A stretch of DNA of 64,000 bases from a bacterium (GTDB lineage: Bacteria; Patescibacteriota; Dojkabacteria; JAKAPS01; JAJZLI01). The stretch spans positions 17,700-81,699 of the forward strand of contig JAJZWL010000003.1 in NCBI GenBank assembly GCA_021846685.1. The letters are read 5' to 3'. The translations under genes and the position numbers were made by a program. The notes below the pieces were generated by a model, which saw only the letters and a list, made by a program, of their open reading frames with translations, had not been told where the DNA came from and made no database searches. Below, piece after piece: positions 1,298 to 49,681 of this stretch (positions are counted from its first letter, which is position 1; every line of letters begins with the position of its first letter).

Positions 1298-1831
1298 ATG
1301 GCAATTAATAAACAAAAAAAACAGGATATACTCATTGAATATATGAATGATATTAATTCTTCGGAATGTATTTTCTTAATTAATACTAGTGGGTTGTCTG
1401 TAAATGTAATTGATGAATTTAGAGTTAAATTAAGATCTTTAAATAATTCTAAATATAAATTGATAAAAAATACGCTATTTAAGTTAGCTCTGTCTAAAAA
1501 AGAACTTACTGAGGATATATTAACTAATATTTATGGTTATAATGCAGTAGTCTTTTCAATAAAAGATAGTAATTTAATTGCAAAAGAAATTGTTGATTTT
1601 GCAGAAAGTAATGGTGTAGAAATTAATTTTGGATTGTTAAACCTCAATCTACTTAATAAAAATGAAATAAAATCTCTAAGCCAGATCCCTAATAAGCAAA
1701 CATTAATAGGTTCCTTAATTTATGTATTGAATTTTAATACTAATAAAGTATTAAATGCATTAAACTATAATACTAAATTACTTATTAATAGTATTGATCT
1801 AGTAAAAGATAAAAAGGAGGTGAATGTATAA
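1298..1831 (+). CDS. rplJ: 50S ribosomal protein L10
   Basis: The product is 177 aa and sits immediately upstream of L7/L12 with a GGAGG ribosome-binding site. Composition is L10-like. Confidence 0.85.
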   Translation: MAINKQKKQDILIEYMNDINSSECIFLINTSGLSVNVIDEFRVKLRSLNNSKYKLIKNTLFKLALSKKELTEDILTNIYGYNAVVFSIKDSNLIAKEIVDFAESNGVEINFGLLNLNLLNKNEIKSLSQIPNKQTLIGSLIYVLNFNTNKVLNALNYNTKLLINSIDLVKDKKEVNV

Positions 1832-2232
1832 TGGAAGATAAAAAATTAAATAGTATTGTTGAAGAAATCGAAAAAATGAATATTTTAGAAGTTTCTAAGC
1901 TTGTTAAACTATTGGAAGATAAGTTTGATGTAAAAGCTAATAATCAAGTCCAGGTAGTTGCTTCTGGTGTATCTCAAGGCCAAGCAGATGGTTCAGATAA
2001 TGCAGGTACTCAAGAAAAGACTGCTTTTGAAGTGATATTAGAATCTACTGGTGAGAAAAAAATAGAAGTAATTAAAGCTTTAAGAGTAATTAATCCTGAA
2101 TTAGGTTTAAAGGAAGCTAAAGATTTAACTGAGGCTACTCCTAAAACTATTAAAGAGTCTGTAGATAAAGATGAAGCAGATAAGATTAAAAAAATGTTTG
2201 AAGATGCAGGTGCAACAATAACATTAAAATAA
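1831..2232 (+). CDS. rplL: 50S ribosomal protein L7/L12
   Basis: The N-terminal dimerisation helix, an Ala/Gly-rich hinge and the C-terminal domain (KIEVIKALRVI..GLKEAKDLTE) are all present. Confidence 0.92.
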   Translation: MEDKKLNSIVEEIEKMNILEVSKLVKLLEDKFDVKANNQVQVVASGVSQGQADGSDNAGTQEKTAFEVILESTGEKKIEVIKALRVINPELGLKEAKDLTEATPKTIKESVDKDEADKIKKMFEDAGATITLK

Positions 2233-2236
2233 AGTT

Positions 2237-2270
2237 AAGGGGATTGAAAATTTTAATCCCCTTTCTTTTT
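2237..2270. terminator. Bidirectional intrinsic terminator between rplL (+) and the convergent minus-strand gene
   Basis: AAGGGGATT-gaaaatttt-AATCCCCTT is followed by a T-run. Confidence 0.65.
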
Positions 2271-3597
2271 ATATAATAGCTGATATCCCCAAAAATAACC
2301 CAATTATTTCCCAATTAAACATTAAAGTTAAATATGAATGGAAAAAGTTAGATATAAATATTCCTATGAATCCTGATAAAAGAGATACTAATATAATCTT
2401 CTTATCCTTATCTAATTCTTTAACTTTATATAATATATTTTTAAAGAAATTAAAAAAGAAATACATATAAGATAAAAACCCTATAAGGCCAATTTCTGAT
2501 AACCATAATAAGAATAGGGGAGGATTATCTATGTTATTGTAGTAATAGTTGATATGTGGCTTTATGTAGGTTCCGAAATAGTAAGTAAATGTACCTAATC
2601 CTGTCCCAAAGATCATATGTTTTATAAATATGATATAACTATATTTTACTAAAATATAATGTCCTAAATATGAAAATCTTTCTTTGTAGTAAAAGTATTT
2701 AATTATTAAATTAATTTTAACAATCATGATTAATAACAAAATACTAAGAAGAATAATATAATATTTGAAATGCCTATGTTTGTAGAGTTTTAGTGCTATT
2801 ACTATATATATAATTGAAAATATCAAGCCAATAAGTGCACTTTTTGAAAATGTCATTATAAAATAAATGAATATTACAGGAGCTATATATCTAGCATATT
2901 TTGTAATATATTTTTCAGTATATTTTTTATTTAAAAAATATACTGAAATTAGTAGAGGAATTATTATTAATATATATCCTGCCGCTGTATTTACATCTGT
3001 GAAAGTGGAATCTGGCCTAAGAAAATTTATTCCATGTATAGTTGTAATAAAGGTATTTGGATTAATTGTAGAAGAATAGAGTAGTTTACTTATATTAAAT
3101 GTATCAAATTTAAAAAATAGATATCCGAAAAACTGTAGAATTCCATAAAGTGAAATAATAAGAGAAGAAACTAAAAGGGAATTGATGACTATTTTGACAT
3201 TTCTGTATATCACTAAGTAATAATAAGATATTATTATCAATAGAGCGTTCAATATGATATATATCGTTGCTTTTGTTGATAAGAATTTATTTAGTGAAAA
3301 AATATCAGATATTATAATACTTAAAATAATCAAGGCAATAGAGTACATAACTTTTTTCTCAAGTTTAAATTTCTTTCTTTTTAATAATAATAATTTTATG
3401 TCTTTATAGTTAACAAAAATTGTTAAAATTAAAATAGGAATAAATAGTATTATTGGATCAAGTGTAAACCCTAAATACAGATTAAATCTTTCTAGTGGTA
3501 ATAGAAGGATTGATATAGGAATAGAGAGTTTTGGATAATTTAGTGTTAAGATTGCTATTGCAAGATAGATTGTTATAAGAATTATAATTAGTAACAT
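2269..3597 (-). CDS. Polytopic membrane protein, O-antigen ligase/Wzy_C family (glycan polymerase/ligase or O-oligosaccharyltransferase-like)
   Basis: It has more than 10 predicted TM helices. A periplasmic loop carries a Wzy_C-like motif (GTGLGTF..NNIDNPPLFLLWLSEIGLIGF). It is co-directional with, and 4 nt from, the upstream mreB paralogue. Confidence 0.5.
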   Translation of the reverse strand: MLLIIILITIYLAIAILTLNYPKLSIPISILLLPLERFNLYLGFTLDPIILFIPILILTIFVNYKDIKLLLLKRKKFKLEKKVMYSIALIILSIIISDIFSLNKFLSTKATIYIILNALLIIISYYYLVIYRNVKIVINSLLVSSLIISLYGILQFFGYLFFKFDTFNISKLLYSSTINPNTFITTIHGINFLRPDSTFTDVNTAAGYILIIIPLLISVYFLNKKYTEKYITKYARYIAPVIFIYFIMTFSKSALIGLIFSIIYIVIALKLYKHRHFKYYIILLSILLLIMIVKINLIIKYFYYKERFSYLGHYILVKYSYIIFIKHMIFGTGLGTFTYYFGTYIKPHINYYYNNIDNPPLFLLWLSEIGLIGFLSYMYFFFNFFKNILYKVKELDKDKKIILVSLLSGFIGIFISNFFHSYLTLMFNWEIIGLFLGISAII

Positions 3598-3601
3598 AGT
3601 T

Positions 3602-4612
3602 TTATAAAGGATTTTTAATATTCTTAGAAAGTGCTTCTATATATTTTATTGCTTCAGCTGCACCTTCTGATACATTAAATAATGTATTATCATTAACATA
3701 CACTGGTATACCTATTGCTCTAGATAATAATACATCAATATTTCTTAGTAATGAAGTTCCTCCGCTTAAAAGAATTCCTCTGTCTATAATATCTGAAGAT
3801 AATTCTGGAGGAGTTTTTTCTAATATTTGCCTTGTAGTCTGAATTATTAGATTCAATGGAGACTTTATAGCCTCAACTACTATGTTTGTATCAATATTGA
3901 CAGCCTTAGGCATTCCGGTAATAGAATCTCTTCCCTTTATTTCCATCTCTAAAGGAGAGGTAAGGGGTAAAGCCGATCCAATATTAAGCTTTATATTTTC
4001 TGCCATTTGATTTCCGATAACTATCCCTCTGTTTTTCTTTAAAAAATTTATTATTGATTCATTTATATAATCACCACCTATTCTTATTGCATCAGATATA
4101 ACTATCCCATTAAGGGATATTATTGCAAATTCAGCAGTGCCACCCCCTATATTGATAACCATATTCCCAGATGAGGTTCCTATTGGTAAATTACACCCAA
4201 TAGCTGTTAATAGGGATTCTGGCATTAAGTAAACTTTTTTTGCTCCAGAATTCACAATTGCCTCATATATAGCTCTTTTTTCTACTGAAGTTAATCCTGA
4301 TGATATGCTAGCTACTACTTCTGATCCTGATAGAAACTTTGATTTAGATACCTTAGATAAAAAATGTTTTATCATTAATTCAGAGATCTTGTAATTAGCA
4401 ATAGCTCCTCCTTTGATGGGATTTTTAGAGATAATTCCTTCGGGAGTCTTGCCTAGCATTTCTTTTGCTTCATAACCTATTGCTATAACTGAATTGTCAT
4501 CTACCGATATCGCTACGACAGAAGGTTCATCTAGTAATATTCCTTTATTGAGACCTGATATTCGAGAATTAGATGTACCAAAATCTAATCCAAATTTATT
4601 TTTATTAAACAT
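3602..4612 (-). CDS. MreB/Mbl-family actin homologue (second paralogue)
   Basis: FGLDFGTSNS, EPSVVAI and GGGTAEFAIISLNGIV..RIGGD align with the phosphate-1, phosphate-2 and adenosine motifs of MreB. Confidence 0.8.
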   Translation of the reverse strand: MFNKNKFGLDFGTSNSRISGLNKGILLDEPSVVAISVDDNSVIAIGYEAKEMLGKTPEGIISKNPIKGGAIANYKISELMIKHFLSKVSKSKFLSGSEVVASISSGLTSVEKRAIYEAIVNSGAKKVYLMPESLLTAIGCNLPIGTSSGNMVINIGGGTAEFAIISLNGIVISDAIRIGGDYINESIINFLKKNRGIVIGNQMAENIKLNIGSALPLTSPLEMEIKGRDSITGMPKAVNIDTNIVVEAIKSPLNLIIQTTRQILEKTPPELSSDIIDRGILLSGGTSLLRNIDVLLSRAIGIPVYVNDNTLFNVSEGAAEAIKYIEALSKNIKNPL

Positions 4613-4688
4613 ATTTTTAAAAATTATTTTATTTTGTGCTATAATTCTAGCATATATTCTGCTGTATTGAAATATTTTTGATATATTT

Positions 4689-6128
4689 ATGAAAAATAAA
4701 AAAATAAAAAATTTTTTAAATAAAATATCTTCTTTTGTTATTATATTACTTATATTAGTAATAGCGCTATTTGTCGTTCTTTACGCAAGGGGTTATAATT
4801 TCGATATCTCTAATTTGTCAATAACATCTACAGGGATAATTAGGGTAAATACAACTCCAAATAACTCTCAAGTATACTTAAATAATAAATACGTAGGAAA
4901 TTCTCCTGTAGTTTTAAATTCTATAAATCCAGGAGCATATAACATAAAGGTTTTAAAGACTAATTATACTCAATGGGATAGTTTGGTCACAGTGAAGTCT
5001 GGGAATATCACAAATGTAGACCCATTCTTACTTCCTACGCAGGTTGATCAAAGCATAGTTAAGACTGCTGGAAATGTGTATAAAGTCATTTATAATAGGA
5101 ATAGTAACTATTTATATATTATTGTAGTAAAGAATAATATATATAAATTATATTACTTAAATTTATCTTTGATTACCCAAGGTTATAAATTAAATTATGT
5201 TACGAATCTAACTAAAATTATTAAATTTAATGGTAAAAATAATATAACAATTGAGAGTAATTCTTCTATAGCAAATATAATATTGCAATATAATAATAAA
5301 TATTATATTTATAATATAGCTACGAATAAATTATTATCTCTTAGTAAAATAATTTATTCTAATAATTTTACTAATATTAAATGGGCAGATTCGTCAAATT
5401 ATATTTTATTGAGAAATAAAAATTTATTATCAGTATTTAATTTATCTACTAACCAAACATACCTATTGTCATACACACCAAACTCTTCTTCGGGTATTTC
5501 ATACAGAGTCTTGAGTTCTAGTCAGATAATTTTTTCATTGTATAGTCGTAGTACTAATATTTCTAATATTTTCATTTCCAATTTAAATGGTACTGAAAAA
5601 ACACTTGTTTATAAAATAACAGGAGATATAAATAATATTTTTGTAAATAGTGAAGAGTCATATGTAGCAATTTCTGTAAAAGGAGGAAATAATTATTTGT
5701 TGTCATTAAAAAACAATATTTTGTCACATAAAATAAAGTTTGCTAGTCAATCTAAGATACTTACTTTTAATAGTCAGAATAACTACATATTGACAGAAAA
5801 GAACAATACAGTATATGCCTATTATATTAATAACCTATCAAAGATTTTAGTGATTGATAATTACAATCAATTACATAATTTAAAGCTGTATTCTTTAGGT
5901 AGTTATATATTTTTTCAAAAGAAAAATCCAAATAGCACAACCTATTCTTTATATGAACAAACAATAGGACTCAGTACCCCTGTTTTATTAAGTAAAGATA
6001 CTGTAGGTGATTATTATATTTCTGTTGGAGGGGATTATTTGTTTTTTAAATATTATTATAAAAATAGTACATACCTTTATGCTATGACTTTAATAAAAAA
6101 TAATAATATTTTCCCTTTTGCTCTATAA
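4689..6128 (+). CDS. Membrane-anchored PEGA-domain protein with an Asn/Tyr/Ser-rich beta-rich C-terminal region
   Basis: An N-terminal TM helix is followed by a PEGA-like segment (IRVNTTPNNSQVYLNNKYVGNSPVVL..GAYNIKVLKTNY..W). The remainder is a low-complexity beta-strand pattern. Confidence 0.45.
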   Translation: MKNKKIKNFLNKISSFVIILLILVIALFVVLYARGYNFDISNLSITSTGIIRVNTTPNNSQVYLNNKYVGNSPVVLNSINPGAYNIKVLKTNYTQWDSLVTVKSGNITNVDPFLLPTQVDQSIVKTAGNVYKVIYNRNSNYLYIIVVKNNIYKLYYLNLSLITQGYKLNYVTNLTKIIKFNGKNNITIESNSSIANIILQYNNKYYIYNIATNKLLSLSKIIYSNNFTNIKWADSSNYILLRNKNLLSVFNLSTNQTYLLSYTPNSSSGISYRVLSSSQIIFSLYSRSTNISNIFISNLNGTEKTLVYKITGDINNIFVNSEESYVAISVKGGNNYLLSLKNNILSHKIKFASQSKILTFNSQNNYILTEKNNTVYAYYINNLSKILVIDNYNQLHNLKLYSLGSYIFFQKKNPNSTTYSLYEQTIGLSTPVLLSKDTVGDYYISVGGDYLFFKYYYKNSTYLYAMTLIKNNNIFPFAL

Positions 6129-6133
6129 GTAAA

Positions 6134-6207
6134 TGTCCCTGATAGGATTCGAACCTATGACCTTCTCGTTAGGACCGAGATGCTCTATCCATCTGAGCTA
6201 CAGAGAC
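6134..6207 (-). tRNA. tRNA-Arg (anticodon CCU)
   Basis: The minus-strand cloverleaf has acceptor GTCTCTG/CAGGGAC, anticodon loop gTCCTAa and T-arm ATAGG-TTCGAAT-CCTAT. Confidence 0.85.
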
Positions 6208-6274
6208 ATGAATATTTTGAATATTTATTTATTATATAGTAAAATAGTCATTAAGTTAATATTAAATATATAAT

Positions 6275-6892
6275 ATGGATAATTATAAATATCAAAGAAC
6301 TTTAGTTTTAATAAAACATGATGGTGTGGCTAGGGGATTAGTTGGAGATATAATTTCAAGATTTGAAAGAATTGGTTTAAAAATTATTGCTATGAAGTTA
6401 ATTTTAGCAGATGATAATAGAGCAAAGAGTCATTATCCTGATTCTAAAGAATGGTATTTAAATGTAGGTAATAGGATAATATCAAATTATAAAGAAAAAG
6501 AATTGGATGTAAAGAAAGATTTTTCTACAGATGATCCTATTGAAATAGGTAAAATTATAAAATCATATAATGAAGAATATCTATTAGCTGGTCCGGTAGT
6601 AGCAATGGTATTAGAAGGTCCAGAGGCTATTAAAATAGTACGAAAGATATTGGGGTTAACAAATCCATTAGAATCTCCCGTAGGTACAATTAGGGGTGAT
6701 TATTCTTGGGATAATAATGAATTAGCTACATTGCAAAAAAGGCCCTTGTATAATTTAATGCATGCTTCAAGCTCTGAAGAGGATTCTTCGTATGAAATTA
6801 ATCTTTGGTTTGATAAAAGTGAATTATTAGATTATAAAATAAGTCCAGAGGATTTTACTGGGTGGAAAAGCAAATTATCTCCTAAAGAATAA
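6275..6892 (+). CDS. ndk: Nucleoside diphosphate kinase with an internal insertion of about 50 aa
   Basis: TLVLIKHDGVARGLVGDIISRFE plus NLMHASSS (catalytic His region) identify NDK. At 205 aa it is about 60 aa longer than the usual 140-150 aa. Confidence 0.8.
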   Translation: MDNYKYQRTLVLIKHDGVARGLVGDIISRFERIGLKIIAMKLILADDNRAKSHYPDSKEWYLNVGNRIISNYKEKELDVKKDFSTDDPIEIGKIIKSYNEEYLLAGPVVAMVLEGPEAIKIVRKILGLTNPLESPVGTIRGDYSWDNNELATLQKRPLYNLMHASSSEEDSSYEINLWFDKSELLDYKISPEDFTGWKSKLSPKE

Positions 6893-14522: not shown

Positions 14523-15581
14523 ATGACATCTTCAAATACATTTTGGAATTTTTTTACATTTGATATTGGTATAGATTTAGGGACTGCTAATACTTTGGTT
14601 TTTGTTAAAAACCAAGATATTAATATTTCTGAGCCTTCTGTAGTTGCATTAAACTCTAAGACTAAGGAAATATTAGCTGTTGGATCTGAAGCTCAAAAAA
14701 TGTTGGGACGAACACCTGCTTCTATTGTAGCCATAAGGCCTTTGAAGGATGGTGTAATATCAGATTTTGATTCTACAAAGGAAATGATCCATTATTTTAT
14801 AGAAAAAGTGCATAAAGATTCTAAGAAAATATTTAAAATAGCTAGACCTAGGATAGTTATTGGTATACCTTCTGCGATAACAGAAGTTGAGAAAAAAGCA
14901 GTCATTGATGCTGCAATATCAGCTGGAGCTAGAGATGTCTATTTAATTCAAGAGCCCATGGCGGCTGCAATAGGATGTAATTTGCCCGTAACTGAAGCAA
15001 TGGGATCTTTTATAGTAGATATAGGTGGAGGAACTTCAGATATAGCTGTTATTTCATTAGGTGGTATAGTTGTTGATAAATCAATAAGAATAGCTGGAGA
15101 TGAATTAACTCAAGATATTATTAACTATGTAAGAGGTAAATATAACTTATTGATAGGAGAAAGGTCGGCTGAACAGCTCAAAATTACTTTAGGGAATGCA
15201 TATCCTAGAAAAGAAAATAAAAAAGCTGAGATAAAAGGTAGAGATATATTACTTGGATTACCAAAAACTATTACAATATCTGAGGCAGAAATTAGAGAAG
15301 CTATGAGTAATTCTTTAAATATAATAATAGAAGCTATTTATGATGCTTTGGAAGAGACCCCTCCTGAATTAGTGTCTGATATTACTGAAAGAGGAATATA
15401 TTTGACTGGTGGTGGTGCTTTAATTTCAGGGATAAAGAAACTTTTTTCAGAAAAAATAAAAGTGCCTTTCATTATTGCTGATGATCCTCTTAAAAGTGTA
15501 GTAATAGGGGCTTCTAAAATATTGGAAGATGTAAATTTATTAGAGAGTATAAGTTCTTCTGATTCAGAAGATTATATTTAA
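14523..15581 (+). CDS. mreB: Rod-shape determining protein MreB
   Basis: DIGIDLGTANTLVFV, EPSVVAL and DIGGGTSDIAVISLGGIV are present, and it sits immediately upstream of mreC/mreD/PBP2. Confidence 0.92.
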   Translation: MTSSNTFWNFFTFDIGIDLGTANTLVFVKNQDINISEPSVVALNSKTKEILAVGSEAQKMLGRTPASIVAIRPLKDGVISDFDSTKEMIHYFIEKVHKDSKKIFKIARPRIVIGIPSAITEVEKKAVIDAAISAGARDVYLIQEPMAAAIGCNLPVTEAMGSFIVDIGGGTSDIAVISLGGIVVDKSIRIAGDELTQDIINYVRGKYNLLIGERSAEQLKITLGNAYPRKENKKAEIKGRDILLGLPKTITISEAEIREAMSNSLNIIIEAIYDALEETPPELVSDITERGIYLTGGGALISGIKKLFSEKIKVPFIIADDPLKSVVIGASKILEDVNLLESISSSDSEDYI

Positions 15582-15589
15582 ATGTTATA

Positions 15590-16393
15590 ATGAAATCTAG
15601 AAACACACAAAAAATAAAGTTACTAAACGGTATTACCTGGCTTTTAATTGTCGATATATTTATATTTTTGATATCCATGAAATTTTATTTTGCATACAAT
15701 GTACTAGATCCATTGATTATTCCTGTAAAAAATTATACTTCTAATATATCTTCAAATGTGGGAAATTTTTTTATTACACTAGAGAATCTTAATAATGTTA
15801 GTAAGCAGAATATAATATTACAAGATAAGATCTATTTATATAAGTCAAAAATTAATTCTTTGGAAAATAATAAGTCTAAAACGCTTTCAATCAGTAATCA
15901 ATTAAAGGGTAATTATTTAAATAATAAATATAAATATATATATTCTCAAATAATGTATTATGGTACAAATAATACATTTGGATATACTTATTTAAACTCA
16001 GGAAGTGCTCAGGGTGTGAAATTAAATGATCCTGTGGTTTTTGAAAACTATCTTGTAGGGGTTGTATCTAAGGTATTTAATAATTATTCTAAAGTAATGT
16101 TAATTTCTAATTTAAATATTAATGTTCCTGTACTGATCAATAATACTAATGGTATATTAAAGGGGAGTCTATCTAGTTCTTTAACTGTTCAAGATATTAC
16201 TCAATTAAATAATATTTCTTTAGGGAATGTAGTAATAACCTCTGGATTAGATGGCACGTTCCCTAAAAACTTAATAGTTGGAAATGTAGAGCAGGTAAAA
16301 GGAAGTAAGAGCGGCCTTTTTAAAGATATTTCTGTAGCTCCTGCTATAAATATAAATAACCTAAAATATCTTTTTATATTAAAATATGAATAA
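15590..16393 (+). CDS. mreC: Rod shape-determining protein MreC
   Basis: An N-terminal TM helix is followed by a coiled coil and a beta-rich C-terminus (GLDGTFPKNLIVGNV). Its position after mreB supports the call. Confidence 0.7.
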   Translation: MKSRNTQKIKLLNGITWLLIVDIFIFLISMKFYFAYNVLDPLIIPVKNYTSNISSNVGNFFITLENLNNVSKQNIILQDKIYLYKSKINSLENNKSKTLSISNQLKGNYLNNKYKYIYSQIMYYGTNNTFGYTYLNSGSAQGVKLNDPVVFENYLVGVVSKVFNNYSKVMLISNLNINVPVLINNTNGILKGSLSSSLTVQDITQLNNISLGNVVITSGLDGTFPKNLIVGNVEQVKGSKSGLFKDISVAPAININNLKYLFILKYE

Positions 16394-16877
16394 AAAATTG
16401 ATAACCATATACATAGTTTATAGCATATTATTGATGCTATTTAGCAGTTCTTTTCTGAATGTGATATTTATATCTGTTTTATTCTTTAATATAATGTTTA
16501 TTTTGAATATAAAAGTATTTTTTGAAGAAAAAATGAGATCTATGTTATACATATATATATTTATATATGGTTTGATTTTCGATCTGTATTTATTTAAACC
16601 TTTAGGAGAAACAAGTTTTTTATTCTTATTGCCTTTATTAATCCTGTATTTTTACCCTAGTTTAAGATTGCGATCGATAGTCTATATTTCATCTAGTTTT
16701 ATATTTAATATATTATTATTAATATATATATTAGGACCTAATTTTATAGGCAAAATTTATAATAATTATATTTTAATATTATTTATTATTGTGATATTAG
16801 CTATAGAGAGCACAATAATAAAGGTTTTTATAAAAAGAAAGAAAATTTCGAAAAATATATATACCATTGATATTTAA
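16386..16877 (+). CDS. mreD: Rod shape-determining protein MreD
   Basis: A small polytopic membrane protein that overlaps the mreC stop. Confidence 0.6.
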   Translation: MNKKLITIYIVYSILLMLFSSSFLNVIFISVLFFNIMFILNIKVFFEEKMRSMLYIYIFIYGLIFDLYLFKPLGETSFLFLLPLLILYFYPSLRLRSIVYISSSFIFNILLLIYILGPNFIGKIYNNYILILFIIVILAIESTIIKVFIKRKKISKNIYTIDI

Positions 16878-16882
16878 GTAAA

Positions 16883-18748
16883 ATGAATAATTTTGAAATT
16901 GATGATTTAAATAGTCTCCCAGATGATGATAATCATAAGATTATTAATAATGAGTTATTATCTAAAATATATTCTTATTTAATATACTCTATATTCGCAT
17001 TCTTTATATTAGTCTTGATATACTTTTCCGTTATAGAGTTTAAGAAATATAATAAGTTGTCAATAAATAATAGATTAATAACTACTCCTATTATTGCTCC
17101 TAGAGGTGTAATTTTTTCTAGGAATATGACCCAGCTTTCGTACAATATTCCTACATTTAATTTATATATTAATACTCAAAATTTAAGTAAATCTCATCTA
17201 AAAACAGATATTAGTATACTTTCTAAAATATTAGCTATAAGTAGTAAAAAGATTACAAAAATTGTTCAAAGTGGACTGAAGTCTGGGTACGTAGAAATAC
17301 CTATTGAAACGGGGATAAGTAATAAGAATGAAATATTAATTTCTTCAAATAGTCATTTATATGGTGTCAGCTTTAAACAAACATCTTATGTTAAATTTCG
17401 TTACAATAATTTATTATCTCATATATTGGGTTATACTGGCCCAATAAGTGAGCAAGAATTACTAAATAATAAAAATATGAATCCTTATGATATAGTCGGA
17501 AGATATGGCATTGAAGAAAGTTTCAACAATTATTTAACGGGAAAAGATGGGTATCAAATTAATGAGGTAGATACTTATGGAAATGCAGTATCTAAGTTTG
17601 CAAAAGTAAATCCTATCCCAGGTAATAATATTCAACTTACAGTTAGTGCTACTATTCAAAAAAAATTACAGCAATTAATTATTCAAAATATTAAGCAGAA
17701 TCCTAATCATGTTACGGGAGCAGTAGGTATTGTTGAAAATATTAATACTGGAGGTATTCTAGCTATGGTGAGTTATCCCACATTTAATAATAATAATTTT
17801 GAAGGCTTAGGTATAAGTCAATCTCAATATTCAAAATTATTAAATAACCCTGATACTCCATTGTTAAATAGGGCTATATCTACTCAGCAACCTATTGGAT
17901 CTATAATGAAAACTATACTTTTGTCTGCTGGTTTACAGACTGGGGCTATAACAAAAAATACGACATTCTCAGTTCCTGGAACTTTTAATTATGATGGAAC
18001 AGTCTTTGAAAATTATGCAAGAATAAATTGGGGTGAAGCTAATATAGAAAAATGCTTACAGTATTCAATTAATGTTTTTGCATTTAAAGCTGCTTTGAAA
18101 ATAGGAATAGGTAATTTTGTTAAATATGAAAAACTTTTTGGGTTAGGGAAGCCTACAGGAATACAACTACCAGGAGAAAGTTCTGGGATCATCGCAAATC
18201 CTAAAACTAAATTACAATTAACAGGTCAACCTTGGTATCCTGGTGATTTATTAAATTCGGCAATAGGTCAAGGTTACACAGAAGTTACTCCAATTCAAGT
18301 TGCTAATTTTATAAGTGCTATTGCTAATGGTGGGAAATTAATGAGACCAAGGATTGTAAAAGCTATATATAATTATAAAGGAAATTTAGTAAAAAAATAT
18401 AATCCTACTGTCATTAGGTCAGGTTTTGTATCTTCAAAAAATCTAGATATTATAAAAACTGGAATGTATCTGGCTGTGCAGCATGGTATAGATATTGCAG
18501 CTCAAAGTACTATAGCTGATAATGCAGGAAAGAGTGGAACAGCTCAATTTGGACAAGAATCATATAATCCAAATCCTGCAGCTAATAGATATTTACATTC
18601 TCATTCTTGGATGTCTTCATTTGCTCCATATAATAAACCTCAGATAGCAATGGTAGTATTTGAAGAGAATGGAGGAGTCAGCACTTATTCTGCAGAGGTT
18701 GTAAAAAATTTCATGAACTGGTATTTTGGTACATATTTAAAACATTAA
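16883..18748 (+). CDS. mrdA: Penicillin-binding protein 2 (elongasome transpeptidase)
   Basis: A TM anchor is followed by a PBP dimer domain and a transpeptidase domain with SIMK (SxxK) and KSGT motifs. Confidence 0.85.
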   Translation: MNNFEIDDLNSLPDDDNHKIINNELLSKIYSYLIYSIFAFFILVLIYFSVIEFKKYNKLSINNRLITTPIIAPRGVIFSRNMTQLSYNIPTFNLYINTQNLSKSHLKTDISILSKILAISSKKITKIVQSGLKSGYVEIPIETGISNKNEILISSNSHLYGVSFKQTSYVKFRYNNLLSHILGYTGPISEQELLNNKNMNPYDIVGRYGIEESFNNYLTGKDGYQINEVDTYGNAVSKFAKVNPIPGNNIQLTVSATIQKKLQQLIIQNIKQNPNHVTGAVGIVENINTGGILAMVSYPTFNNNNFEGLGISQSQYSKLLNNPDTPLLNRAISTQQPIGSIMKTILLSAGLQTGAITKNTTFSVPGTFNYDGTVFENYARINWGEANIEKCLQYSINVFAFKAALKIGIGNFVKYEKLFGLGKPTGIQLPGESSGIIANPKTKLQLTGQPWYPGDLLNSAIGQGYTEVTPIQVANFISAIANGGKLMRPRIVKAIYNYKGNLVKKYNPTVIRSGFVSSKNLDIIKTGMYLAVQHGIDIAAQSTIADNAGKSGTAQFGQESYNPNPAANRYLHSHSWMSSFAPYNKPQIAMVVFEENGGVSTYSAEVVKNFMNWYFGTYLKH

Positions 18749-18757
18749 TATTTAATC

Positions 18758-20905
18758 ATGTCAAAAAGTTTAATAATAGTAGAATCTCCAACAAAAGCAG
18801 TAACCTTGTCTAAATTTTTAGATAAAGATTATACTGTTATTGCAACGAAAGGTCATATAGAAGATCTTCCAAAGAGTAAATTCGGTATAGATGTAGATAA
18901 TCATTTTGCTCCAGAATATACTATATTAAAAGATAAAGAAAAATTATTAAAAGAAATTCAAAAAGGTGTAAATAATGCAGATGATGTCTATATCGCAACA
19001 GATCCTGATAGAGAGGGGGAGGCTATTGGCTGGCATTTATTACAAAATTTAAAGTTAGATAATAAAAAAGTTCTAAGAATAACTTTTCACGAAATAACAA
19101 AAAATGCTTTGTTAGAAGCTTTGAAAAATGCTCATGATTTGAATTATGATTTAGTTAATTCTCAAGTAGCAAGAAGAGTTTTAGATAGGGTTGTTGGGTA
19201 TAAATTGTCACCACTATTGTGGGAAAAAATTAGATATGGATTGTCTGCTGGTAGAGTACAGTCAGCGGCTTTAAAATTAATAGTTGATAGAGAAAAAGAA
19301 ATTCAAGCATTTCAAACTAATGAATATTGGAATATAACTTCTGATTTTAATATTAATTCTATTGTAATAACTTTTAATTTAAACAAACTTAATTCTAAAA
19401 AGATTCAGATTAATAATGAAGATGAAGCAAATAATATTTTAAAAGATATCTCATCAGGTAAATCTCATTTAAAAGAGATAAAAAATACTCAAATAAAAAA
19501 TAATCCTAAGCCTCCATATACAACTTCTACATTGCAACAAGATGCTAATTTGAAAATAGGATTTTCTTCTAAAAAAACTATGATGATAGCTCAGATGTTA
19601 TATGAAGGATTAGATATCAATGGAGAAAATGTTGGGTTAATAACTTATATGAGAACAGATTCTGTATCATTGTCTGATAATTCTATTAATGAAATAAGAA
19701 GTTTTGTTTCAAAAGAATATCCAAAAGAGTATTTACCTAATAGTAAAAATGTTTATAAGGTGAAAACTAAATTAGCTCAAGAGGCTCATGAAGCAATCAG
19801 ACCTTCAGATATATCTAAGATTCCAGATAAAATTAAAAAATATTTAACTCCAGACCAATATAAATTATATAAATTAATATGGTCTAGAGCTATTGCTTCT
19901 CAAATGAATCCTGCTATTTACAATAATAAAAAATTACTTTTAGATGTAAAATTAGAAAAAGAAAAGAAAATTTATGATTTCTCTTCAAATTTTTCAGATT
20001 TAGCTTTTGATGGATATAAAATTATATATAATGATGATAATAAAAAAGAGAATGATAATATTATTAAGTTTCCGTTCAATGTTCTTTCTGAGATTAAAAG
20101 TGTTTTATTTATAAAGTCAGATAAATCACAGCATTTTACAGAACCTCCTGCTAGATATAATGACGCTTCATTAATCAAAAAATGTGAAGAATCAGGAATA
20201 GGAAGGCCTTCGACTTACTCATCTATAATCTCTACTTTAATTAATAGAACATATATAGAGAGAAAAGAAAGACATTTTATCCCTACAGATACAGGGATGG
20301 TAGTCAGTGATTTTTTAGAAAAATATTTTTCTAATATAGTAGATATTAATTTTACTTCTAATATGGAAGATGATTTAGATAAGGTAGCTTCTGGAAAACT
20401 TAATTGGGAAAAAGTTGTTTCTGATTTTTACTATCCATTTGACAAAGATATATTAAAAAAAGAAAAAACTATAGAAAAAAGTGATGTAACTAATTTAGGA
20501 AAATCTGATGAAAAATGTCCTGAGTGTGGCTCTGATATGTTTATTAAATTAGGCAGATATGGGAAGTTTTTAAGTTGTTCTAGATATCCTGATTGTAAGG
20601 GTATGAAATCTATGGTTGAAATTGAGGTACAAGAGGTAGATGAAAAATGTCCTGAGTGTGGCTCTGAATTAGTCTTAAAAAAAGGTAGATTTGGAGATTT
20701 TTTTGCTTGTTCTAGATATCCTGATTGTAAATATACAAAATCTTTAAAAAATAAAGAAAAGAAAATTTTAGAATTATCTTGCCCTGATTGTGGTGAAGGA
20801 AAAATAGTTGAATTAAGAAACAAAAGAGGTCAAATATTTTATGGATGTAGTAATTATCCGAAATGTCATTTTACTTCCAATAATTTAGATAAAATTAAAT
20901 CATAA
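18758..20905 (+). CDS. topA: DNA topoisomerase I with three C-terminal C4 zinc ribbons
   Basis: The Toprim domain (ESPTKA..DPDREGE) and the topo IA core are followed by three CPxCG..CSxYPxC modules. Confidence 0.92.
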   Translation: MSKSLIIVESPTKAVTLSKFLDKDYTVIATKGHIEDLPKSKFGIDVDNHFAPEYTILKDKEKLLKEIQKGVNNADDVYIATDPDREGEAIGWHLLQNLKLDNKKVLRITFHEITKNALLEALKNAHDLNYDLVNSQVARRVLDRVVGYKLSPLLWEKIRYGLSAGRVQSAALKLIVDREKEIQAFQTNEYWNITSDFNINSIVITFNLNKLNSKKIQINNEDEANNILKDISSGKSHLKEIKNTQIKNNPKPPYTTSTLQQDANLKIGFSSKKTMMIAQMLYEGLDINGENVGLITYMRTDSVSLSDNSINEIRSFVSKEYPKEYLPNSKNVYKVKTKLAQEAHEAIRPSDISKIPDKIKKYLTPDQYKLYKLIWSRAIASQMNPAIYNNKKLLLDVKLEKEKKIYDFSSNFSDLAFDGYKIIYNDDNKKENDNIIKFPFNVLSEIKSVLFIKSDKSQHFTEPPARYNDASLIKKCEESGIGRPSTYSSIISTLINRTYIERKERHFIPTDTGMVVSDFLEKYFSNIVDINFTSNMEDDLDKVASGKLNWEKVVSDFYYPFDKDILKKEKTIEKSDVTNLGKSDEKCPECGSDMFIKLGRYGKFLSCSRYPDCKGMKSMVEIEVQEVDEKCPECGSELVLKKGRFGDFFACSRYPDCKYTKSLKNKEKKILELSCPDCGEGKIVELRNKRGQIFYGCSNYPKCHFTSNNLDKIKS
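20508..20735 (+). repeat. Intragenic tandem duplication (about 132-bp period) encoding topA zinc-ribbon modules
   Basis: Two near-identical 25-28-nt blocks (atgaaaaatgtcctgagtgtggctctga and tgttctagatatcctgattgtaa) each recur 132 bp apart. Confidence 0.6.
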
Positions 20906-36959: not shown

Positions 36960-37002
36960 GATTCATTCATTATTAATCTTTTAAGAATAGTATATTAATT
37001 AT

Positions 37003-37415
37003 TGGAGATGGTGGGAATCGAACCCACATCCATGAAGATATATGTATATATGGAATTACAAGTTTATCAATTTAATTTAAATTATCATTTTTATATTGAC
37101 AAATCTATGATAATTTTAATATTTAGAGAGTTATGTTTTCGTGTTATAGTCCAATATTAAGAACTAACAACCTTGAGCTTGATATTGTTTAAGCAAGATA
37201 AAACTTACAAGCATATGTCTCATCTTACTCTAAGTTTATTATGCTAAACTTAGATTGTATTGTGGAACAGCAAGTTTTGCTTTTAAATTAGCAAAAAATT
37301 CAGCCACTTTACTTTTTGTATTATTTACATTTATTGTTTTAATAATTTTTAAAAGATTATCAAACTTTACTTGCTATATATACATCTATTTTTCTTGTCA
37401 AAACCGGTCATCCCC
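37003..37415 (-). ncRNA. ssrA: Transfer-messenger RNA (tmRNA, SsrA), about 413 nt; not in the ORF track
   Basis: The minus strand begins GGGGAUGACCGGUUUUGACAAG, matching the tmRNA 5' consensus GGGGnUGA..GG.UUCGAC. It ends GGAUGUGGGUUCGAUUCCCACCAUCUCCA, a T-arm plus acceptor. The acceptor pairs with the 5' end through a G3:U70 wobble, the tRNA-Ala identity element. An internal frame ..AKLAVPQYNLSLA ends in tandem UAA UAA. Confidence 0.7.
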
Positions 37416-37507: not shown

Positions 37508-38104
37508 ATGGTAATCTTTCAATTAGGTATGTTTAATAATAAAAGTCATAAAGGGAGTATTAATTTGTTAAATAATATAGAAGAACCCAGGGATTCTTCT
37601 GAATTATTTTATACGTGGGTTGTGAATTATGGTAGATATATATTAATAGGTGTTGAAATTATAGTTATTATAGTTTTTGTATCAAAAATATTAGTTGACC
37701 AAGAGTATAATTATGCAATTTCCACATCATATAGTATGCAAAGCAAATTTAAATCAAAATCACTTCAGAACAAGGTGAATTTAATAACTAGTTATCAAAA
37801 TAAAATGAGTACAATTGTTGGTTTATCTCAAGTTAGGTTTAATTATGAATATACCCTAAATAAGATATTAACACTAATTCCTAAAGGAATTAGTGTGCAA
37901 TCAATAGATATTCAATATAATAATTTTAATATTGTAGGGGTTTCTAATAATTATAATTCATTACAAAAATTATTAGATAAATTTAAGTCAGACAGTAAAG
38001 ACTTTAGTAAAGTATATTTGCCATCTTTGTCTAATTCAGTTAATTTAAATCAAACTAATAATGTATCATTTTCTTTGTCTGGTAATATTAATTTAAAGCA
38101 TTAA
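37508..38104 (+). CDS. PilN-like type IV pilus assembly protein (candidate)
   Basis: An N-terminal INLL motif is followed by a single TM helix and a periplasmic domain of about 130 aa. The size and topology fit PilN. Confidence 0.35.
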   Translation: MVIFQLGMFNNKSHKGSINLLNNIEEPRDSSELFYTWVVNYGRYILIGVEIIVIIVFVSKILVDQEYNYAISTSYSMQSKFKSKSLQNKVNLITSYQNKMSTIVGLSQVRFNYEYTLNKILTLIPKGISVQSIDIQYNNFNIVGVSNNYNSLQKLLDKFKSDSKDFSKVYLPSLSNSVNLNQTNNVSFSLSGNINLKH

Positions 38105-49670: not shown

Positions 49671-49681
49671 GGAGAAATTAT

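What the first reader, a model, noticed from the sequence alone, without database searches (positions are those of the whole stretch)
2269..6128. Second MreB paralogue in an operon with a Wzy_C-family polytopic membrane protein, divergent from a PEGA-domain protein
The canonical elongasome operon (mreB-mreC-mreD-mrdA, 14523-18748) is complete elsewhere in the window. Here a separate, clearly MreB-type actin (3602-4612) is translationally coupled to a 442-aa, more-than-10-TM protein with an O-antigen-ligase/Wzy_C-like periplasmic loop. A 75-bp divergent promoter region separates them from a TM-anchored PEGA-domain protein with a long Asn/Tyr-rich beta-rich region. A second Wzy_C protein fused to TPR repeats lies at 62001-63959. 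The pairing of a cytoskeletal filament with a glycan polymerase/ligase or O-oligosaccharyltransferase-like enzyme suggests a dedicated surface-polymer or protein-glycosylation positioning module. This gene pairing is not a standard described operon.
Basis: inference. Interest (0 to 1): 0.6.

Follow-up and report, generated by a model that had tools for sequence, protein, structure and literature searches.

The report
Second MreB coupled to glycan enzymes
In a candidate-phyla-radiation (CPR, or Patescibacteria) bacterium, a second, lineage-specific copy of the cell-shape actin MreB is co-transcribed with a WaaL-like membrane glycan transferase and faces a surface-exposed PEGA/β-propeller protein; this turns out to be the local version of a widespread, undescribed CPR gene module linking that actin to cell-envelope sugar-polymer enzymes.

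Summary
The genes are a Wzy_C-family 12-TM protein (2269-3597, -), an MreB paralogue 4 nt upstream of it (3602-4612, -), and a divergent TM-PEGA-β-propeller protein (4689-6128, +). A conventional mreB-mreC-mreD-like-PBP2 operon lies at 14523-18748.

The MreB2→Wzy_C adjacency, with −4 to +10 nt spacing, holds in all 10 related loci examined. It persists down to 47-55% MreB identity and 26% Wzy_C identity, and it survives rearranged flanks.

MreB2 belongs to a separate, CPR-type MreB clade that is never followed by mreC. In that clade the core conserved pair is a PEGA protein facing MreB2. The downstream slot is filled by GT4, WecG/TagA-type GT26 or Wzy_C genes in 29 of 49 loci (24 of 31 PEGA-linked loci). 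murA is often directly upstream. One locus (L093) has MreB-Wzy_C-GT26-GT in a single operon.

The membrane protein's model is closest to the O-antigen ligase WaaL and further from RodA/FtsW.

Best reading: this is a second, MreB2-centred envelope-glycopolymer assembly module. Physical coupling between its proteins is inferred and not shown. The existence of two CPR MreB clades was already published, but I found no description of this module. I rate it a new variant of a known kind, with moderately high interest.

The parts
2237..2263 (.). G+C-rich hairpin (AAGGGGATT…AATCCCCTT) between the convergent rplL (1831-2232, +) and the 3' end of the Wzy_C-like gene. It is a terminator-like site that closes the operon.
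   Evidence: Sequence read. It is one of only 2 terminator-like sites in 1800-6400 (1.1 expected by shuffling, so the evidence is weak).
2269..3597 (-). Wzy_C-family polytopic membrane glycosyltransferase (442 aa, about 12 TM, N-in/C-in). It is WaaL-like and is predicted to transfer an undecaprenyl-diphosphate-linked glycan on the outer face of the membrane.
   Evidence: Pfam Wzy_C 34.6 bits. The AF2 model has pLDDT 67 and pTM 0.72. Foldseek best hit is WaaL 7TPG at E 5.7e-5 and TM 0.55/0.59, with FtsW/RodA at TM 0.26-0.47. Invariant residues E36, R37, R194, D201, N203, H313, E368, N417 and H420 all fall in loops or helix ends that I assign to the outer face, using the model's helices and the positive-inside rule (inference). 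The subfamily has 21 representatives at E<=1e-30 among 1.84 billion.
3598..3601 (-). 4-nt junction (AACT) between the MreB2 stop codon TAA and the Wzy_C ATG, consistent with co-transcription and possible translational coupling.
   Evidence: The equivalent spacing is −4 to +10 nt in 10 loci.
3602..4612 (-). MreB2: a CPR-type MreB paralogue (336 aa). It has a short N-terminus. The catalytic Glu is kept (E132). The phosphate-2 Asp is replaced by Asn (N154), and SGGT replaces TGGG in the adenosine motif.
   Evidence: MreB_Mbl 367 bits. It is 40% identical to MreB1. It scores 285 bits to Geobacillus MreB, against 373 bits for MreB1. In the NJ tree it falls in the PEGA-linked clade, separate from mreC-linked MreBs.
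4613..4688 (.). 76-bp divergent intergenic region between mreB2 and the PEGA gene. It presumably holds both promoters; an extended −10-like TG-TATAAT lies at 4616-4645 (+).
   Evidence: The promoter scan is not above background in this AT-rich DNA (38 found, 37.3 expected), so the promoters are not established. The divergent spacing is 62-79 bp in L001-L008, L011 and L012.
4689..6128 (+). Bitopic surface protein. It has a basic cytoplasmic tail of about 15 aa, a TM helix, a conserved A-R-G-Y boundary motif, a PEGA β-sandwich (about 36-115) and a β-propeller (about 129-467), with everything after the TM helix lying outside the cell.
   Evidence: PEGA 47.8 bits. The AF2 model has pLDDT 74.6. Foldseek returns generic WD40, tricorn and DPP-IV propellers at E about 1e-8. 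The L007 homologue carries precomputed β-propeller Pfam hits. Family members lie divergently upstream of MreB2-type genes in 40 loci.
6275..6892 (+). Nucleoside diphosphate kinase (205 aa). It is a recurrent neighbour of the PEGA gene in this clade. Whether it belongs to the module is uncertain.
   Evidence: Pfam NDK 118 bits. NDK lies next to the PEGA gene in L001-L005, L007, L012 and L093, but in varying orientation.
14523..18748 (+). For contrast, and not part of the module: the conventional mreB1-mreC-mreD-like-PBP2 operon, followed by topA, with no rodA.
   Evidence: for MreB, MreC and PBP2. for the MreD-like 6-TM ORF. One search shows MreB1 clustering with mreC-linked MreBs.

Best explanation
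This locus is the local form of a CPR-wide cell-envelope module built around a second, CPR-type MreB.

The conserved core is a divergent pair. One gene is a bitopic protein whose PEGA and β-propeller domains lie outside the cell. The other is MreB2.

The gene or genes co-transcribed after mreB2 encode enzymes that build or transfer an undecaprenyl-(di)phosphate-linked, non-peptidoglycan glycan:
- GT4 and TagA/WecG-type GT26 enzymes, which act on the cytoplasmic face, in most branches;
- a WaaL-like Wzy_C enzyme, which acts on the outer face, in this window's branch;
- both kinds in L093.

Proposed mechanism:
- MreB2 polymerises on the inner face of the membrane (inferred from family membership).
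- It organises or localises the membrane steps of a wall-glycopolymer or surface-protein glycosylation pathway (inferred from context).
- The Wzy_C protein uses its outward-facing Arg/His site to move the Und-PP-linked glycan onto its acceptor: a growing chain, the wall or a surface protein (inferred from fold and conserved residues).
- The PEGA-propeller protein acts outside the membrane as the wall- or glycan-binding partner, or as the acceptor (speculative).

Shown here: the gene identities, the fold class, the conservation and tightness of the operon, the separate MreB clade, and the recurrent association with glycan enzymes.

Not shown here: any protein-protein contact, filament formation, the glycan, or the acceptor.
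For: 1.

2. The triad PEGA⇄MreB2→Wzy_C is present in L001-L005, L007, L011, L012 and L093. MreB→Wzy_C is also seen on the short contigs L094 and L095. These loci span MreB identity 47-92% and Wzy_C identity down to 26%, with different flanks. The stop/start spacing is −4 to +10 nt.

3. From the Wzy_C side, all 3 tested subfamily members at 156 bits or more have MreB directly upstream. The next relatives do not: the 129-bit one sits in a classical Wzz/GT2/GT4/polyprenyl-P-transferase cluster and the 112-bit one sits next to a sortase. This ties the enzyme to Und-PP-glycan pathways.

4. In the NJ tree of 93 MreBs, mreC/PBP2-linked genes (including MreB1) and PEGA-linked genes (including MreB2) separate. 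No gene has both contexts: 40 are PEGA-linked, 24 are MreC-linked, 0 are both.

5. Of 49 dereplicated MreB2-type loci with at least 1.2 kb downstream, 29 carry GT4, GT26 or Wzy_C co-directionally within 2.5 kb. The figure is 24 of 31 for PEGA-linked loci and 0 of 21 for mreC-type loci. No such glycosyltransferase gene lies upstream in any locus.

6. murA lies directly upstream in 16 MreB2-type loci, which places the gene in a wall-synthesis neighbourhood.

7. Fold: WaaL is the best match and SEDS proteins score lower. The invariant R194 and H313 echo WaaL's Und-PP-binding Arg-191 and acceptor-activating His-313.

8. Precedent: B. subtilis MreB associates with the LCP enzymes that attach wall teichoic acid. 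CPR bacteria are single-membrane and peptidoglycan-walled, and may use wall polysaccharides instead of teichoic acids.
Against: - No interaction evidence of any kind was obtained.
- The PEGA protein's cytoplasmic tail is only about 3-15 residues long and has no conserved motif beyond basic residues, so a direct PEGA-MreB2 contact lacks support.
- The mreC-type control loci have 42-70% GC and are mostly non-CPR, so the 0 of 21 contrast is not phylogenetically matched.
- 20 of 49 MreB2-type loci have no glycan enzyme downstream; holB, MATCAP and other genes are there instead.
- murA upstream fits a general wall-synthesis role as well as it fits a glycopolymer-specific one.
- The Wzy_C Pfam score is only 3 bits over threshold, and the structural model has moderate confidence (pLDDT 67).
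- The equivalence of R194 and H313 to the WaaL residues could not be checked by an explicit alignment.
- The tree is a simple NJ tree without support values.
- The phosphate-2 Asp→Asn change might mean altered or weak ATPase or polymerisation activity.
Confidence: 0.55

Rival explanations
1. MreB2 is simply a second general elongation MreB, like Mbl or MreBH in Bacillus, working with the same peptidoglycan machinery as MreB1. Its neighbours (murA, glycosyltransferases, Wzy_C, the PEGA protein) are there because envelope genes tend to cluster and be co-expressed. There is no dedicated MreB2-glycan enzyme complex.
For: murA is directly upstream in 16 loci. One class A PBP, one MurB and one M23 peptidase are among the downstream neighbours. 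20 of 49 loci have no glycan enzyme downstream. MreB paralogues with overlapping roles are well known in Firmicutes.
Against: The downstream slot is specifically and directionally enriched for GT4, GT26 and Wzy_C across deep divergence. The −4 to +10 nt coupling to Wzy_C persists from 92% down to 47% MreB identity. MreB2-type genes are never next to mreC, mreD or PBP2, whereas MreB1-type genes are. The PEGA partner is specific to this clade.
Confidence: 0.25
2. The Wzy_C-like protein is an O-oligosaccharyltransferase of the kind that glycosylates S-layer proteins or pilins. Its substrate is the adjacent PEGA-propeller surface protein or another surface protein. MreB2 only co-ordinates where this glycoprotein is inserted. 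This is a variant of the main explanation that names a specific acceptor.
For: The Wzy_C domain is shared by O-OTases (established knowledge of the family). The CPR envelope has no LPS acceptor. Pfam describes the PEGA domain as S-layer-like (my recollection, not checked here). Sortase genes lie nearby in L007, L093 and L097. If H313 is equivalent to WaaL His-313, its presence resembles ligases rather than polymerases, which carry Asp or Glu at that position.
Against: There is no PglL_A hit at E<=0.1. The PEGA-MreB2 pair persists in most branches without any Wzy_C gene, so PEGA is not tied to this enzyme. The Asn/Tyr richness of the PEGA protein is what a 25% GC genome produces anyway. No residue-level evidence exists.
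Confidence: 0.12
3. The Wzy_C-like protein is a divergent replacement for RodA. On this reading it is a peptidoglycan glycan-strand polymerase that pairs with MreB2 (and PBP2) to form an alternative Rod system, which would explain why the mre operon lacks rodA.
For: No SEDS gene was found in the 64-kb window, and the mreBCD-PBP2 operon is followed by topA. WaaL and SEDS proteins are distant relatives with a shared fold. FtsW and RodA are the second-best structural matches.
Against: There is no FTSW_RODA_SPOVE hit. WaaL is the clearly better structural match, at TM 0.55-0.59 against 0.26-0.47. The protein has about 12 TM helices, not the 10 of SEDS proteins. An invariant His sits where SEDS proteins have an essential Asp, by position only. 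The nearest non-MreB-coupled relative is in a Wzz-type polysaccharide cluster. It is co-operonic with GT26/GT4 and not with a bPBP. RodA is reported in most Patescibacteria classes and could simply lie outside this window.
Confidence: 0.05
4. The adjacency is accidental and carries no function.
For: None beyond the general fact that small genomes pack genes tightly.
Against: The arrangement recurs in at least 10 loci with rearranged flanks and deep sequence divergence. The PEGA association holds in 40 loci.
Confidence: 0.02

Closest known systems
Rod complex / elongasome (MreB-MreC-MreD-RodZ-PBP2-RodA)
   Same: An MreB-family actin is encoded together with a polytopic glycosyltransferase of the WaaL/SEDS fold class that uses undecaprenyl-diphosphate-linked donors. 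A bitopic protein with a large extracytoplasmic domain accompanies them. murA is often adjacent in relatives.
   Different: There is no MreC, MreD, bPBP or SEDS gene in the module, and the window carries these (apart from a SEDS gene) in a separate operon with MreB1. The enzyme is WaaL-like, not SEDS. The bitopic partner has no RodZ-type cytoplasmic HTH and no MreC domain. MreB2 forms a separate clade.
MreB-associated wall teichoic acid assembly in Bacillus subtilis (Tag enzymes and the LCP ligases TagTUV)
   Same: An MreB cytoskeleton is linked to synthesis or attachment of a non-peptidoglycan wall glycopolymer made on undecaprenyl phosphate. A TagA/TarA-type GT26 is a recurrent member of the CPR module.
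   Different: In Bacillus the link is protein-protein association and not an operon, and it uses the general MreB isoforms. Here a dedicated paralogue is co-transcribed with the enzymes. In this window the extracytoplasmic enzyme is a Wzy_C protein and not an LCP ligase; only a sub-threshold LCP-like ORF exists, at 53972-55144.
O-antigen ligase WaaL (CAZy GT121; PDB 7TPG)
   Same: It is the best structural match. Both have about 12 TM helices and a Wzy_C domain. Invariant Arg and His sit on the outer face at positions (R194, H313) similar to WaaL Arg-191 and His-313.
   Different: There is no LPS or lipid A-core context. CPR cells have a single membrane. Sequence similarity to 7TPG is undetectable, and a second conserved Arg was not identified. 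No known WaaL is coupled to MreB, as far as the searched literature shows.
Wzy-type polysaccharide polymerases and Wzy_C-domain O-oligosaccharyltransferases (PglL/PilO and the S-layer OTases WsaB/WsfB)
   Same: They share the superfamily and the chemistry, which is transfer from Und-PP-glycan on the outer face. The nearest non-MreB-coupled relative lies in a Wzz-containing polysaccharide cluster.
   Different: There is no Wzx or Wzz gene and no pilin gene next to the window gene, and no PglL_A domain. The WsaB/WsfB comparison is from my own knowledge and was not tested.
Two clades of CPR MreB (Takahashi et al. 2020, bioRxiv 10.1101/2020.05.13.095042)
   Same: That paper reports that CPR MreBs split into two clades, that some species hold both, and that this suggests different roles. 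MreB1 and MreB2 here fit that picture.
   Different: The passage retrieved from that paper is purely phylogenetic. The gene-context definition found here (PEGA partner, murA, GT4/GT26/Wzy_C) does not appear in that passage or in any paper found by the searches.

Membership tests
MreB/Mbl actin-like proteins (PF06723) | Full-length match to the family profile above the curated threshold | tested here: met
   PF06723 367 bits against a cutoff of 27. NF010539 379.8 > 293. TIGR00904 360.9, just below its cutoff of 365.75. 285 bits to Geobacillus MreB 7ZPT.
MreB/Mbl actin-like proteins (PF06723) | Intact nucleotide-binding motifs (phosphate-1 DxGT, catalytic Glu, phosphate-2 DxGGGT, adenosine GG) | tested here: inconclusive
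   D10-F-G-T and E132 are kept. The phosphate-2 Asp is Asn (N154) in MreB2 and in 7 of 7 Wzy_C-coupled genes, against Asp in 22 of 24 mreC-linked MreBs. SGGT replaces TGGG. The functional consequence is unknown.
MreB/Mbl actin-like proteins (PF06723) | Operon or neighbourhood with mreC/mreD (conventional rod-shape MreB) | tested here: not met
   MreB2-type genes are never followed by mreC or PBP2 (0 of 40 PEGA-linked loci). MreB1 at 14523 is.
MreB/Mbl actin-like proteins (PF06723) | Polymerises into membrane-bound antiparallel double filaments | not testable with these tools
   This needs biochemistry or cryo-EM. MreB2 has a short N-terminus (MFNKNKFG…) with no obvious amphipathic helix. The membrane-insertion loop was not analysed.
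O-antigen ligase WaaL / Wzy_C superfamily (PF04932; CAZy GT121) | Wzy_C domain above the Pfam gathering score | tested here: met
   34.6 bits against 31.7 for the window protein, covering residues 242-377. 43.1 bits for the L001 orthologue, and 5 of 5 subfamily members in the bulk scan. NCBIfam gives no hit.
O-antigen ligase WaaL / Wzy_C superfamily (PF04932; CAZy GT121) | 12-TM fold with a long extracytoplasmic loop, superimposable on WaaL | tested here: met
   The AF2 model (pLDDT 67, pTM 0.72) has about 12 TM helices and an outer loop at about 303-360. Foldseek top hit is 7TPG_B at E 5.7e-5 and TM 0.55/0.59. Confidence is moderate only.
O-antigen ligase WaaL / Wzy_C superfamily (PF04932; CAZy GT121) | Two Und-PP-binding Arg residues and one acceptor-activating His on the outer face (Arg-191, Arg-265 and His-313 in 7TPG) | tested here: inconclusive
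   R194 and H313 are invariant and are assigned to the outer face (topology inferred). A second invariant Arg in the right place was not identified; R37 or K346 are candidates. No explicit alignment to 7TPG could be obtained. The residue roles come from Meitil et al. 2024.
O-antigen ligase WaaL / Wzy_C superfamily (PF04932; CAZy GT121) | Acts on lipid A-core in an LPS-producing, double-membraned cell | tested here: not met
   No LPS gene was identified among the window ORFs annotated. Patescibacteria are inferred to have a single membrane plus peptidoglycan. The protein is therefore WaaL-like in fold but is not a WaaL in function.
SEDS peptidoglycan polymerases (RodA/FtsW; PF01098; GT119) | FTSW_RODA_SPOVE profile match, 10 TM helices, and pairing with a class B PBP | tested here: not met
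   There is no such Pfam hit at E<=0.1. The model has about 12 TM helices. TM-scores to FtsW and RodA are 0.26-0.47, below those to WaaL. The neighbours are MreB2 and rplL, not a bPBP.
PglL/PilO-type O-oligosaccharyltransferases | PglL_A domain and/or linkage to a pilin or glycoprotein substrate gene | tested here: not met
   No PglL_A hit at E<=0.1. The PilN/PilO-like genes of the window are 34 kb away. The acceptor remains unknown.
Wzx/Wzy-dependent polysaccharide polymerases (BP-Pol) | Location in a cluster with Wzx flippase, Wzz co-polymerase, an initiating transferase and repeat-unit glycosyltransferases | tested here: inconclusive
   This is not so in the window. It is partly so in L093 (GT26 and GT genes follow). 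It is fully so for the nearest non-MreB-coupled relative, L096 (Wzz, DegT, GT2, GT4 x2, Bac_transf).
PEGA-domain proteins (PF08308) | PEGA domain above threshold | tested here: met
   47.8 bits against 20.8, covering residues 49-111. All homologues carry PF08308.
RodZ (the bitopic MreB-binding partner) | Cytoplasmic helix-turn-helix domain that binds MreB, then a TM helix, then a periplasmic domain | tested here: not met
   The cytoplasmic tail is only about 3-15 residues across the family and has no conserved motif. No HTH or RodZ hit was found. Only the overall bitopic layout is similar.

The most novel reading that the evidence does not exclude
MreB2, the PEGA-propeller protein and the Und-P/Und-PP glycan enzymes (GT26, GT4, Wzy_C) form a previously unrecognised second actin-guided envelope machine. 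It would be ancestral to much of the CPR and distinct from the Rod complex. It would lay down a wall glycopolymer or a glycosylated surface layer in a spatially patterned way. The PEGA-propeller would be the outside reader or anchor, and the Asn-for-Asp MreB2 would be a slow-hydrolysing, stable scaffold.
Probability: 0.3. Interest if true: 0.8.

Novelty: new variant of a known kind. Interest (0 to 1): 0.6.

Why it matters
CPR/Patescibacteria make up a large share of bacterial diversity, and almost nothing is known experimentally about how their envelope is built or how these ultrasmall epibionts shape their surface.

A dedicated MreB paralogue that is wired at the operon level to glycan-assembly enzymes and to a surface PEGA/β-propeller protein would have three consequences.

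1. It gives the previously noted 'second CPR MreB' a concrete, testable function.
2. It would extend the principle of cytoskeleton-guided wall synthesis from peptidoglycan to another envelope polymer, through a genetically separable system.
3. It nominates a small, well-defined gene set for experiments in the few genetically tractable CPR strains: the PEGA protein, MreB2, and Wzy_C or GT26/GT4.

It also offers a natural MreB variant (Asn in the phosphate-2 motif) for studying how nucleotide hydrolysis tunes MreB filaments.

Tried and rejected
- The genome-contig scan with MreB2 alone gave only two close relatives, L011 and L012.
- The metagenome scan with the Wzy_C alignment matched 250 patterns but none was confirmed.
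- Profile and single-sequence searches against PDB sequences did not reach WaaL, and the search with the second Wzy_C protein hit only TPR proteins. The WaaL structure paper was not held. Catalytic-residue equivalence therefore could not be shown.
- The promoter scan was at background level in this AT-rich DNA.
- Iterating the PEGA-family profile found no further members.
- I looked for a conserved cytoplasmic motif in the PEGA tail as a possible MreB-binding peptide, by analogy with PilN-PilM. None was found.
- I considered the Wzy_C protein as a RodA substitute and rejected it (see rivals).
- I suspected the ORF at 53972-55144 of being an LCP ligase. It gave only a sub-threshold hit, E 0.12.
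- I first thought the phosphate-2 Asn was diagnostic of the whole PEGA-linked clade. It is not: the counts are N 15, D 8, other 8.
- The organism could not be named beyond 'Patescibacteria group bacterium'.

Full report
**Setting.** The window has about 25% GC. It carries housekeeping genes (rplJ/rplL, rho, rpoB/C region, tRNAs, tmRNA). Its closest protein relatives are labelled 'Patescibacteria group bacterium'. It is therefore a CPR/Patescibacteria chromosome segment.

**Observation.**
- 2269-3597(-) encodes a 442-aa polytopic protein with a Pfam Wzy_C match of 34.6 bits (cutoff 31.7).
- 3602-4612(-) encodes a 336-aa MreB_Mbl protein (367 bits).
- 4689-6128(+) encodes a 479-aa protein with one N-terminal TM helix and a PEGA domain (47.8 bits).
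- The MreB2 stop and the Wzy_C start are 4 nt apart.
- The divergent spacer is 76 bp.
- A G+C-rich hairpin separates the 3' end of the Wzy_C gene from the convergent rplL.
- The conventional operon at 14523-18748 holds MreB1 (455 bits), MreC, a 163-aa 6-TM ORF with no family hit (MreD-like by position only) and PBP2, followed by topA.
- No SEDS protein was found in any window ORF tested.
- The Wzy_C+TPR protein at 62001-63959 is real but only 28% identical to the 442-aa protein.

**The two MreBs.** MreB1 and MreB2 are 40% identical. MreB1 is the more conventional of the two: it scores 373 bits to Geobacillus MreB, against 285 bits for MreB2. It passes both NCBIfam MreB models, whereas MreB2 just misses TIGR00904. 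All 120 of the best database matches to MreB2 are nearer to MreB2 than to MreB1. MreB2 keeps phosphate-1 (D10) and the catalytic Glu (E132). It has Asn for the phosphate-2 Asp (N154) and SGGT for TGGG. The Asn is present in 7 of 7 Wzy_C-coupled genes. It is present in only about half of the other PEGA-linked genes, and it is rare in mreC-linked MreBs, where 22 of 24 have Asp.

**Conservation of the adjacency.**
- Context look-ups for MreB2 relatives at 84%, 77%, 67% and 55% identity all show PEGA ⇄ MreB → Wzy_C. This includes L005, where the ribosomal-protein flanks are rearranged, and L007, which has quite different neighbours.
- Two GTDB species genomes show the same arrangement.
- I then started from the Wzy_C side. 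An exhaustive profile search found a small subfamily: 21 representatives at E<=1e-30 out of 1.84 billion.
- All three members tested at 156 bits or more have an MreB2-type gene directly upstream (L093, L094, L095).
- The next relatives do not. L096 (129 bits) lies inside a classical Wzz / aminotransferase / epimerase / GT2 / GT4 / polyprenyl-phosphate-transferase cluster, and L097 (112 bits) lies beside a sortase.
- The stop-to-start spacing is −4 to +10 nt in all 10 loci.

**The wider module.**
- A metagenome scan with an MreB2-type alignment returned 80 more loci.
- Using my own ORF calling and profiles, I found a PEGA-family gene divergently upstream in 40 loci overall. Among the 60 metagenome loci with at least 1.2 kb upstream, 25 have it, and in 16 it is immediately adjacent.
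- MreC/PBP2 lies downstream in 24 loci. No locus has both contexts.
- In a neighbour-joining tree, the mreC-linked MreBs (with MreB1) and the PEGA-linked MreBs (with MreB2) form separate clades. The Wzy_C-coupled genes are one sub-branch, next to the Dojkabacteria locus L008 and to L010 and L027; L010's MreB, P0117, is labelled Microgenomates.
- Some CPR loci hold both paralogues 3-5 kb apart (L055, L077, L079, L083).
- Caveat: the mreC-type metagenome loci have 42-70% GC and so are mostly not CPR.

**What follows MreB2-type genes elsewhere.**
- Pfam on the 97 genes in the two downstream positions of 61 dereplicated loci gives 18 GT4, 14 WecG/TagA/CpsF (GT26), 5 Wzy_C, 15 holB and 2 MATCAP.
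- Per locus, 29 of 49 have a GT4, GT26 or Wzy_C gene co-directionally within 2.5 kb. The figure is 24 of 31 among PEGA-linked loci and 0 of 21 among mreC-type loci. No such glycosyltransferase gene lies upstream in any locus.
- The GT26 genes pass the WecB/TagA/CpsF superfamily cutoff, and their best specific resemblance is to TarA.
- L093 unites the variants in one operon: PEGA ⇄ MreB-Wzy_C-GT26-GT5/GT4.
- Upstream, 15 of 55 neighbours are in the EPSP_synthase fold family. The three tested score above the murA equivalog cutoff.
- murA is co-directional and directly upstream in 16 MreB2-type loci, five of them with the PEGA gene beyond it.

**The membrane enzyme.**
- An AF2 model from 13 orthologues (pLDDT 67, pTM 0.72) shows about 12 TM helices.
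- Foldseek against the PDB puts WaaL (7TPG) first, at E 5.7e-5 and TM 0.55/0.59. FtsW and RodA follow at TM 0.26-0.47.
- Basic loops at about 64-80, 222-235, 270-277 and 393-402 suggest an N-in/C-in topology. That places all the invariant polar residues (E36, R37, R194, D201, N203, H313, E368, N417, H420) outside. This is my inference from the positive-inside rule and the model.
- In WaaL, Arg-191 and Arg-265 bind Und-PP and His-313 activates the acceptor. Related polymerases and SEDS proteins carry Asp or Glu at the His position (Meitil et al. 2024).
- R194 and H313 here are suggestive, but I could not obtain an explicit alignment.
- SEDS proteins and WaaL are acknowledged distant relatives.

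**The PEGA protein.**
- The AF2 model (pLDDT 74.6) gives a TM helix (4-33), a PEGA β-sandwich (about 36-110) and a β-propeller (about 129-467).
- The PDB matches are generic WD40, tricorn and DPP-IV propellers.
- Across the family, the cytoplasmic tail is about 3-15 mostly basic residues with no conserved motif. An A-(R/Q)-G-Y-(R/K) motif marks the outer membrane boundary.

**Interpretation.**
- The data establish a conserved, operon-level association of a CPR-type MreB paralogue with (a) an extracytoplasmic PEGA-propeller protein and (b) enzymes of undecaprenyl-phosphate-linked glycan assembly, within a wall-synthesis neighbourhood (murA).
- In this window the enzyme is a WaaL-like Wzy_C protein.
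- CPR cells are reported to have one membrane and a peptidoglycan wall, possibly decorated with wall polysaccharides. The enzyme therefore cannot be a true LPS ligase. A wall-glycopolymer polymerase or ligase, or a protein O-glycosyltransferase, is the reasonable function.
- The idea that MreB2 filaments organise these steps rests on family knowledge and on the Bacillus precedent of MreB association with teichoic-acid attachment enzymes. It is inferred and not shown.

**Prior knowledge.** Takahashi et al. (bioRxiv 2020) reported two CPR MreB clades, with some species holding both, and suggested different roles. Full-text searches combining MreB with PEGA domain, O-antigen ligase, CPR/Patescibacteria, or glycosyltransferase and gene neighbourhood found no description of this module. 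The library does not cover most subscription journals.

**Verdict.** I rate it a new variant of a known kind (MreB-linked envelope synthesis), with interest 0.6.

Noticed in passing
L010:7044-8204 and L027:7056-8222 (with L010:8201-13020): In two loci (L010, whose MreB is labelled Microgenomates, and L027), the gene right after the MreB2-type gene is a MATCAP-family (PF08014, 'microtubule-associated tyrosine carboxypeptidase') protein. In L010 it is followed by four ATP-grasp/RimK-like ligase genes. A carboxypeptidase plus amino-acid ligases beside a cytoskeletal protein recalls tubulin C-terminal tyrosination and glutamylation cycles, and raises the question of whether this MreB is post-translationally modified.
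   Followed up: partly
L033, L043, L049, L055, L056, L062, L065, L067, L069, L077, L079, L082, L083, L090 and others (upstream of the MreB match): murA (UDP-GlcNAc 1-carboxyvinyltransferase; above the TIGR01072 cutoff in the 3 tested) lies co-directionally and directly upstream of MreB2-type genes in 16 loci. In five of them it sits between the PEGA gene and mreB2.
   Followed up: yes
L055:9998-11116, L077:8195-8798, L079:11583-12629, L083:11075-11714: A second, MreB1-like gene lies 3-5 kb downstream of the MreB2-type gene in several CPR loci. In this window the two are 10 kb apart. This hints at an old local duplication with retained loose synteny.
   Followed up: partly
The Asn is found in all 7 Wzy_C-coupled genes and in 92 of the 120 best database matches, but rarely in mreC-linked MreBs. 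The effect on ATP hydrolysis is unknown.
   Followed up: partly
window 14523-20905: The mreB1-mreC-mreD-like-PBP2 operon is followed by topA rather than rodA. No SEDS gene was found in any window ORF tested, and the mreD-like ORF (16386-16877) matches no Pfam or NCBIfam model.
   Followed up: partly
window 53972-55144: A 390-aa ORF with one N-terminal TM segment. Its only family signal is a sub-threshold LytR_cpsA_psr (LCP glycopolymer ligase) match (E 0.12, 12.9 bits against a cutoff of 24.6). It may be a very divergent or degenerate LCP protein.
   Followed up: partly
window 62001-63959 (with 60594-61565): A second Wzy_C protein (about 13 TM segments) is fused to C-terminal TPR repeats. It has weak NCBIfam similarity to IctB-family and exosortase-associated O-glycosylation ligase models. 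It lies just downstream of a XerC/D-type tyrosine recombinase gene and is unrelated in context to MreB.
   Followed up: partly
window 57909-58754 and 51597-52163: Two small polytopic membrane ORFs (281 aa with about 9 TM segments; 188 aa with about 6 TM segments) have no Pfam match even at E<=5.
   Followed up: no
window 37508-38764: A PilN-domain protein (33.8 bits) is followed by a 219-aa single-TM ORF with a weak PilO match (E 0.03). This is probably a type IV pilus PilN/PilO pair, next to the tmRNA gene at 37000-37415.
   Followed up: no
window 49669-50337: The efp ORF as listed begins 13 nt before a tRNA hit (49682-49765, +) and overlaps it. The EF-P domains start at residue 46, so the true efp start is probably downstream of the tRNA.
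   Followed up: no
window 6275-6892; also L001, L003, L005, L007 (two copies), L012, L093: A nucleoside diphosphate kinase gene accompanies the PEGA gene throughout the Wzy_C-coupled clade, though in varying orientation. The protein is long (about 200 aa) and matches the NDK profile in two stretches, which suggests an insertion.
   Followed up: no
L006:7011-7841: At the end of this short contig, the Wzy_C gene is truncated and followed by an inverted fragment that also matches the Wzy_C profile. This is probably an assembly artefact.
   Followed up: no
L007:3274-3924, L093:1823-2503, L097:2169-3134: Sortase genes lie within a few genes of the Wzy_C subfamily members in three loci. This is consistent with a Gram-positive-type wall that carries covalently anchored surface proteins.
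   Followed up: no
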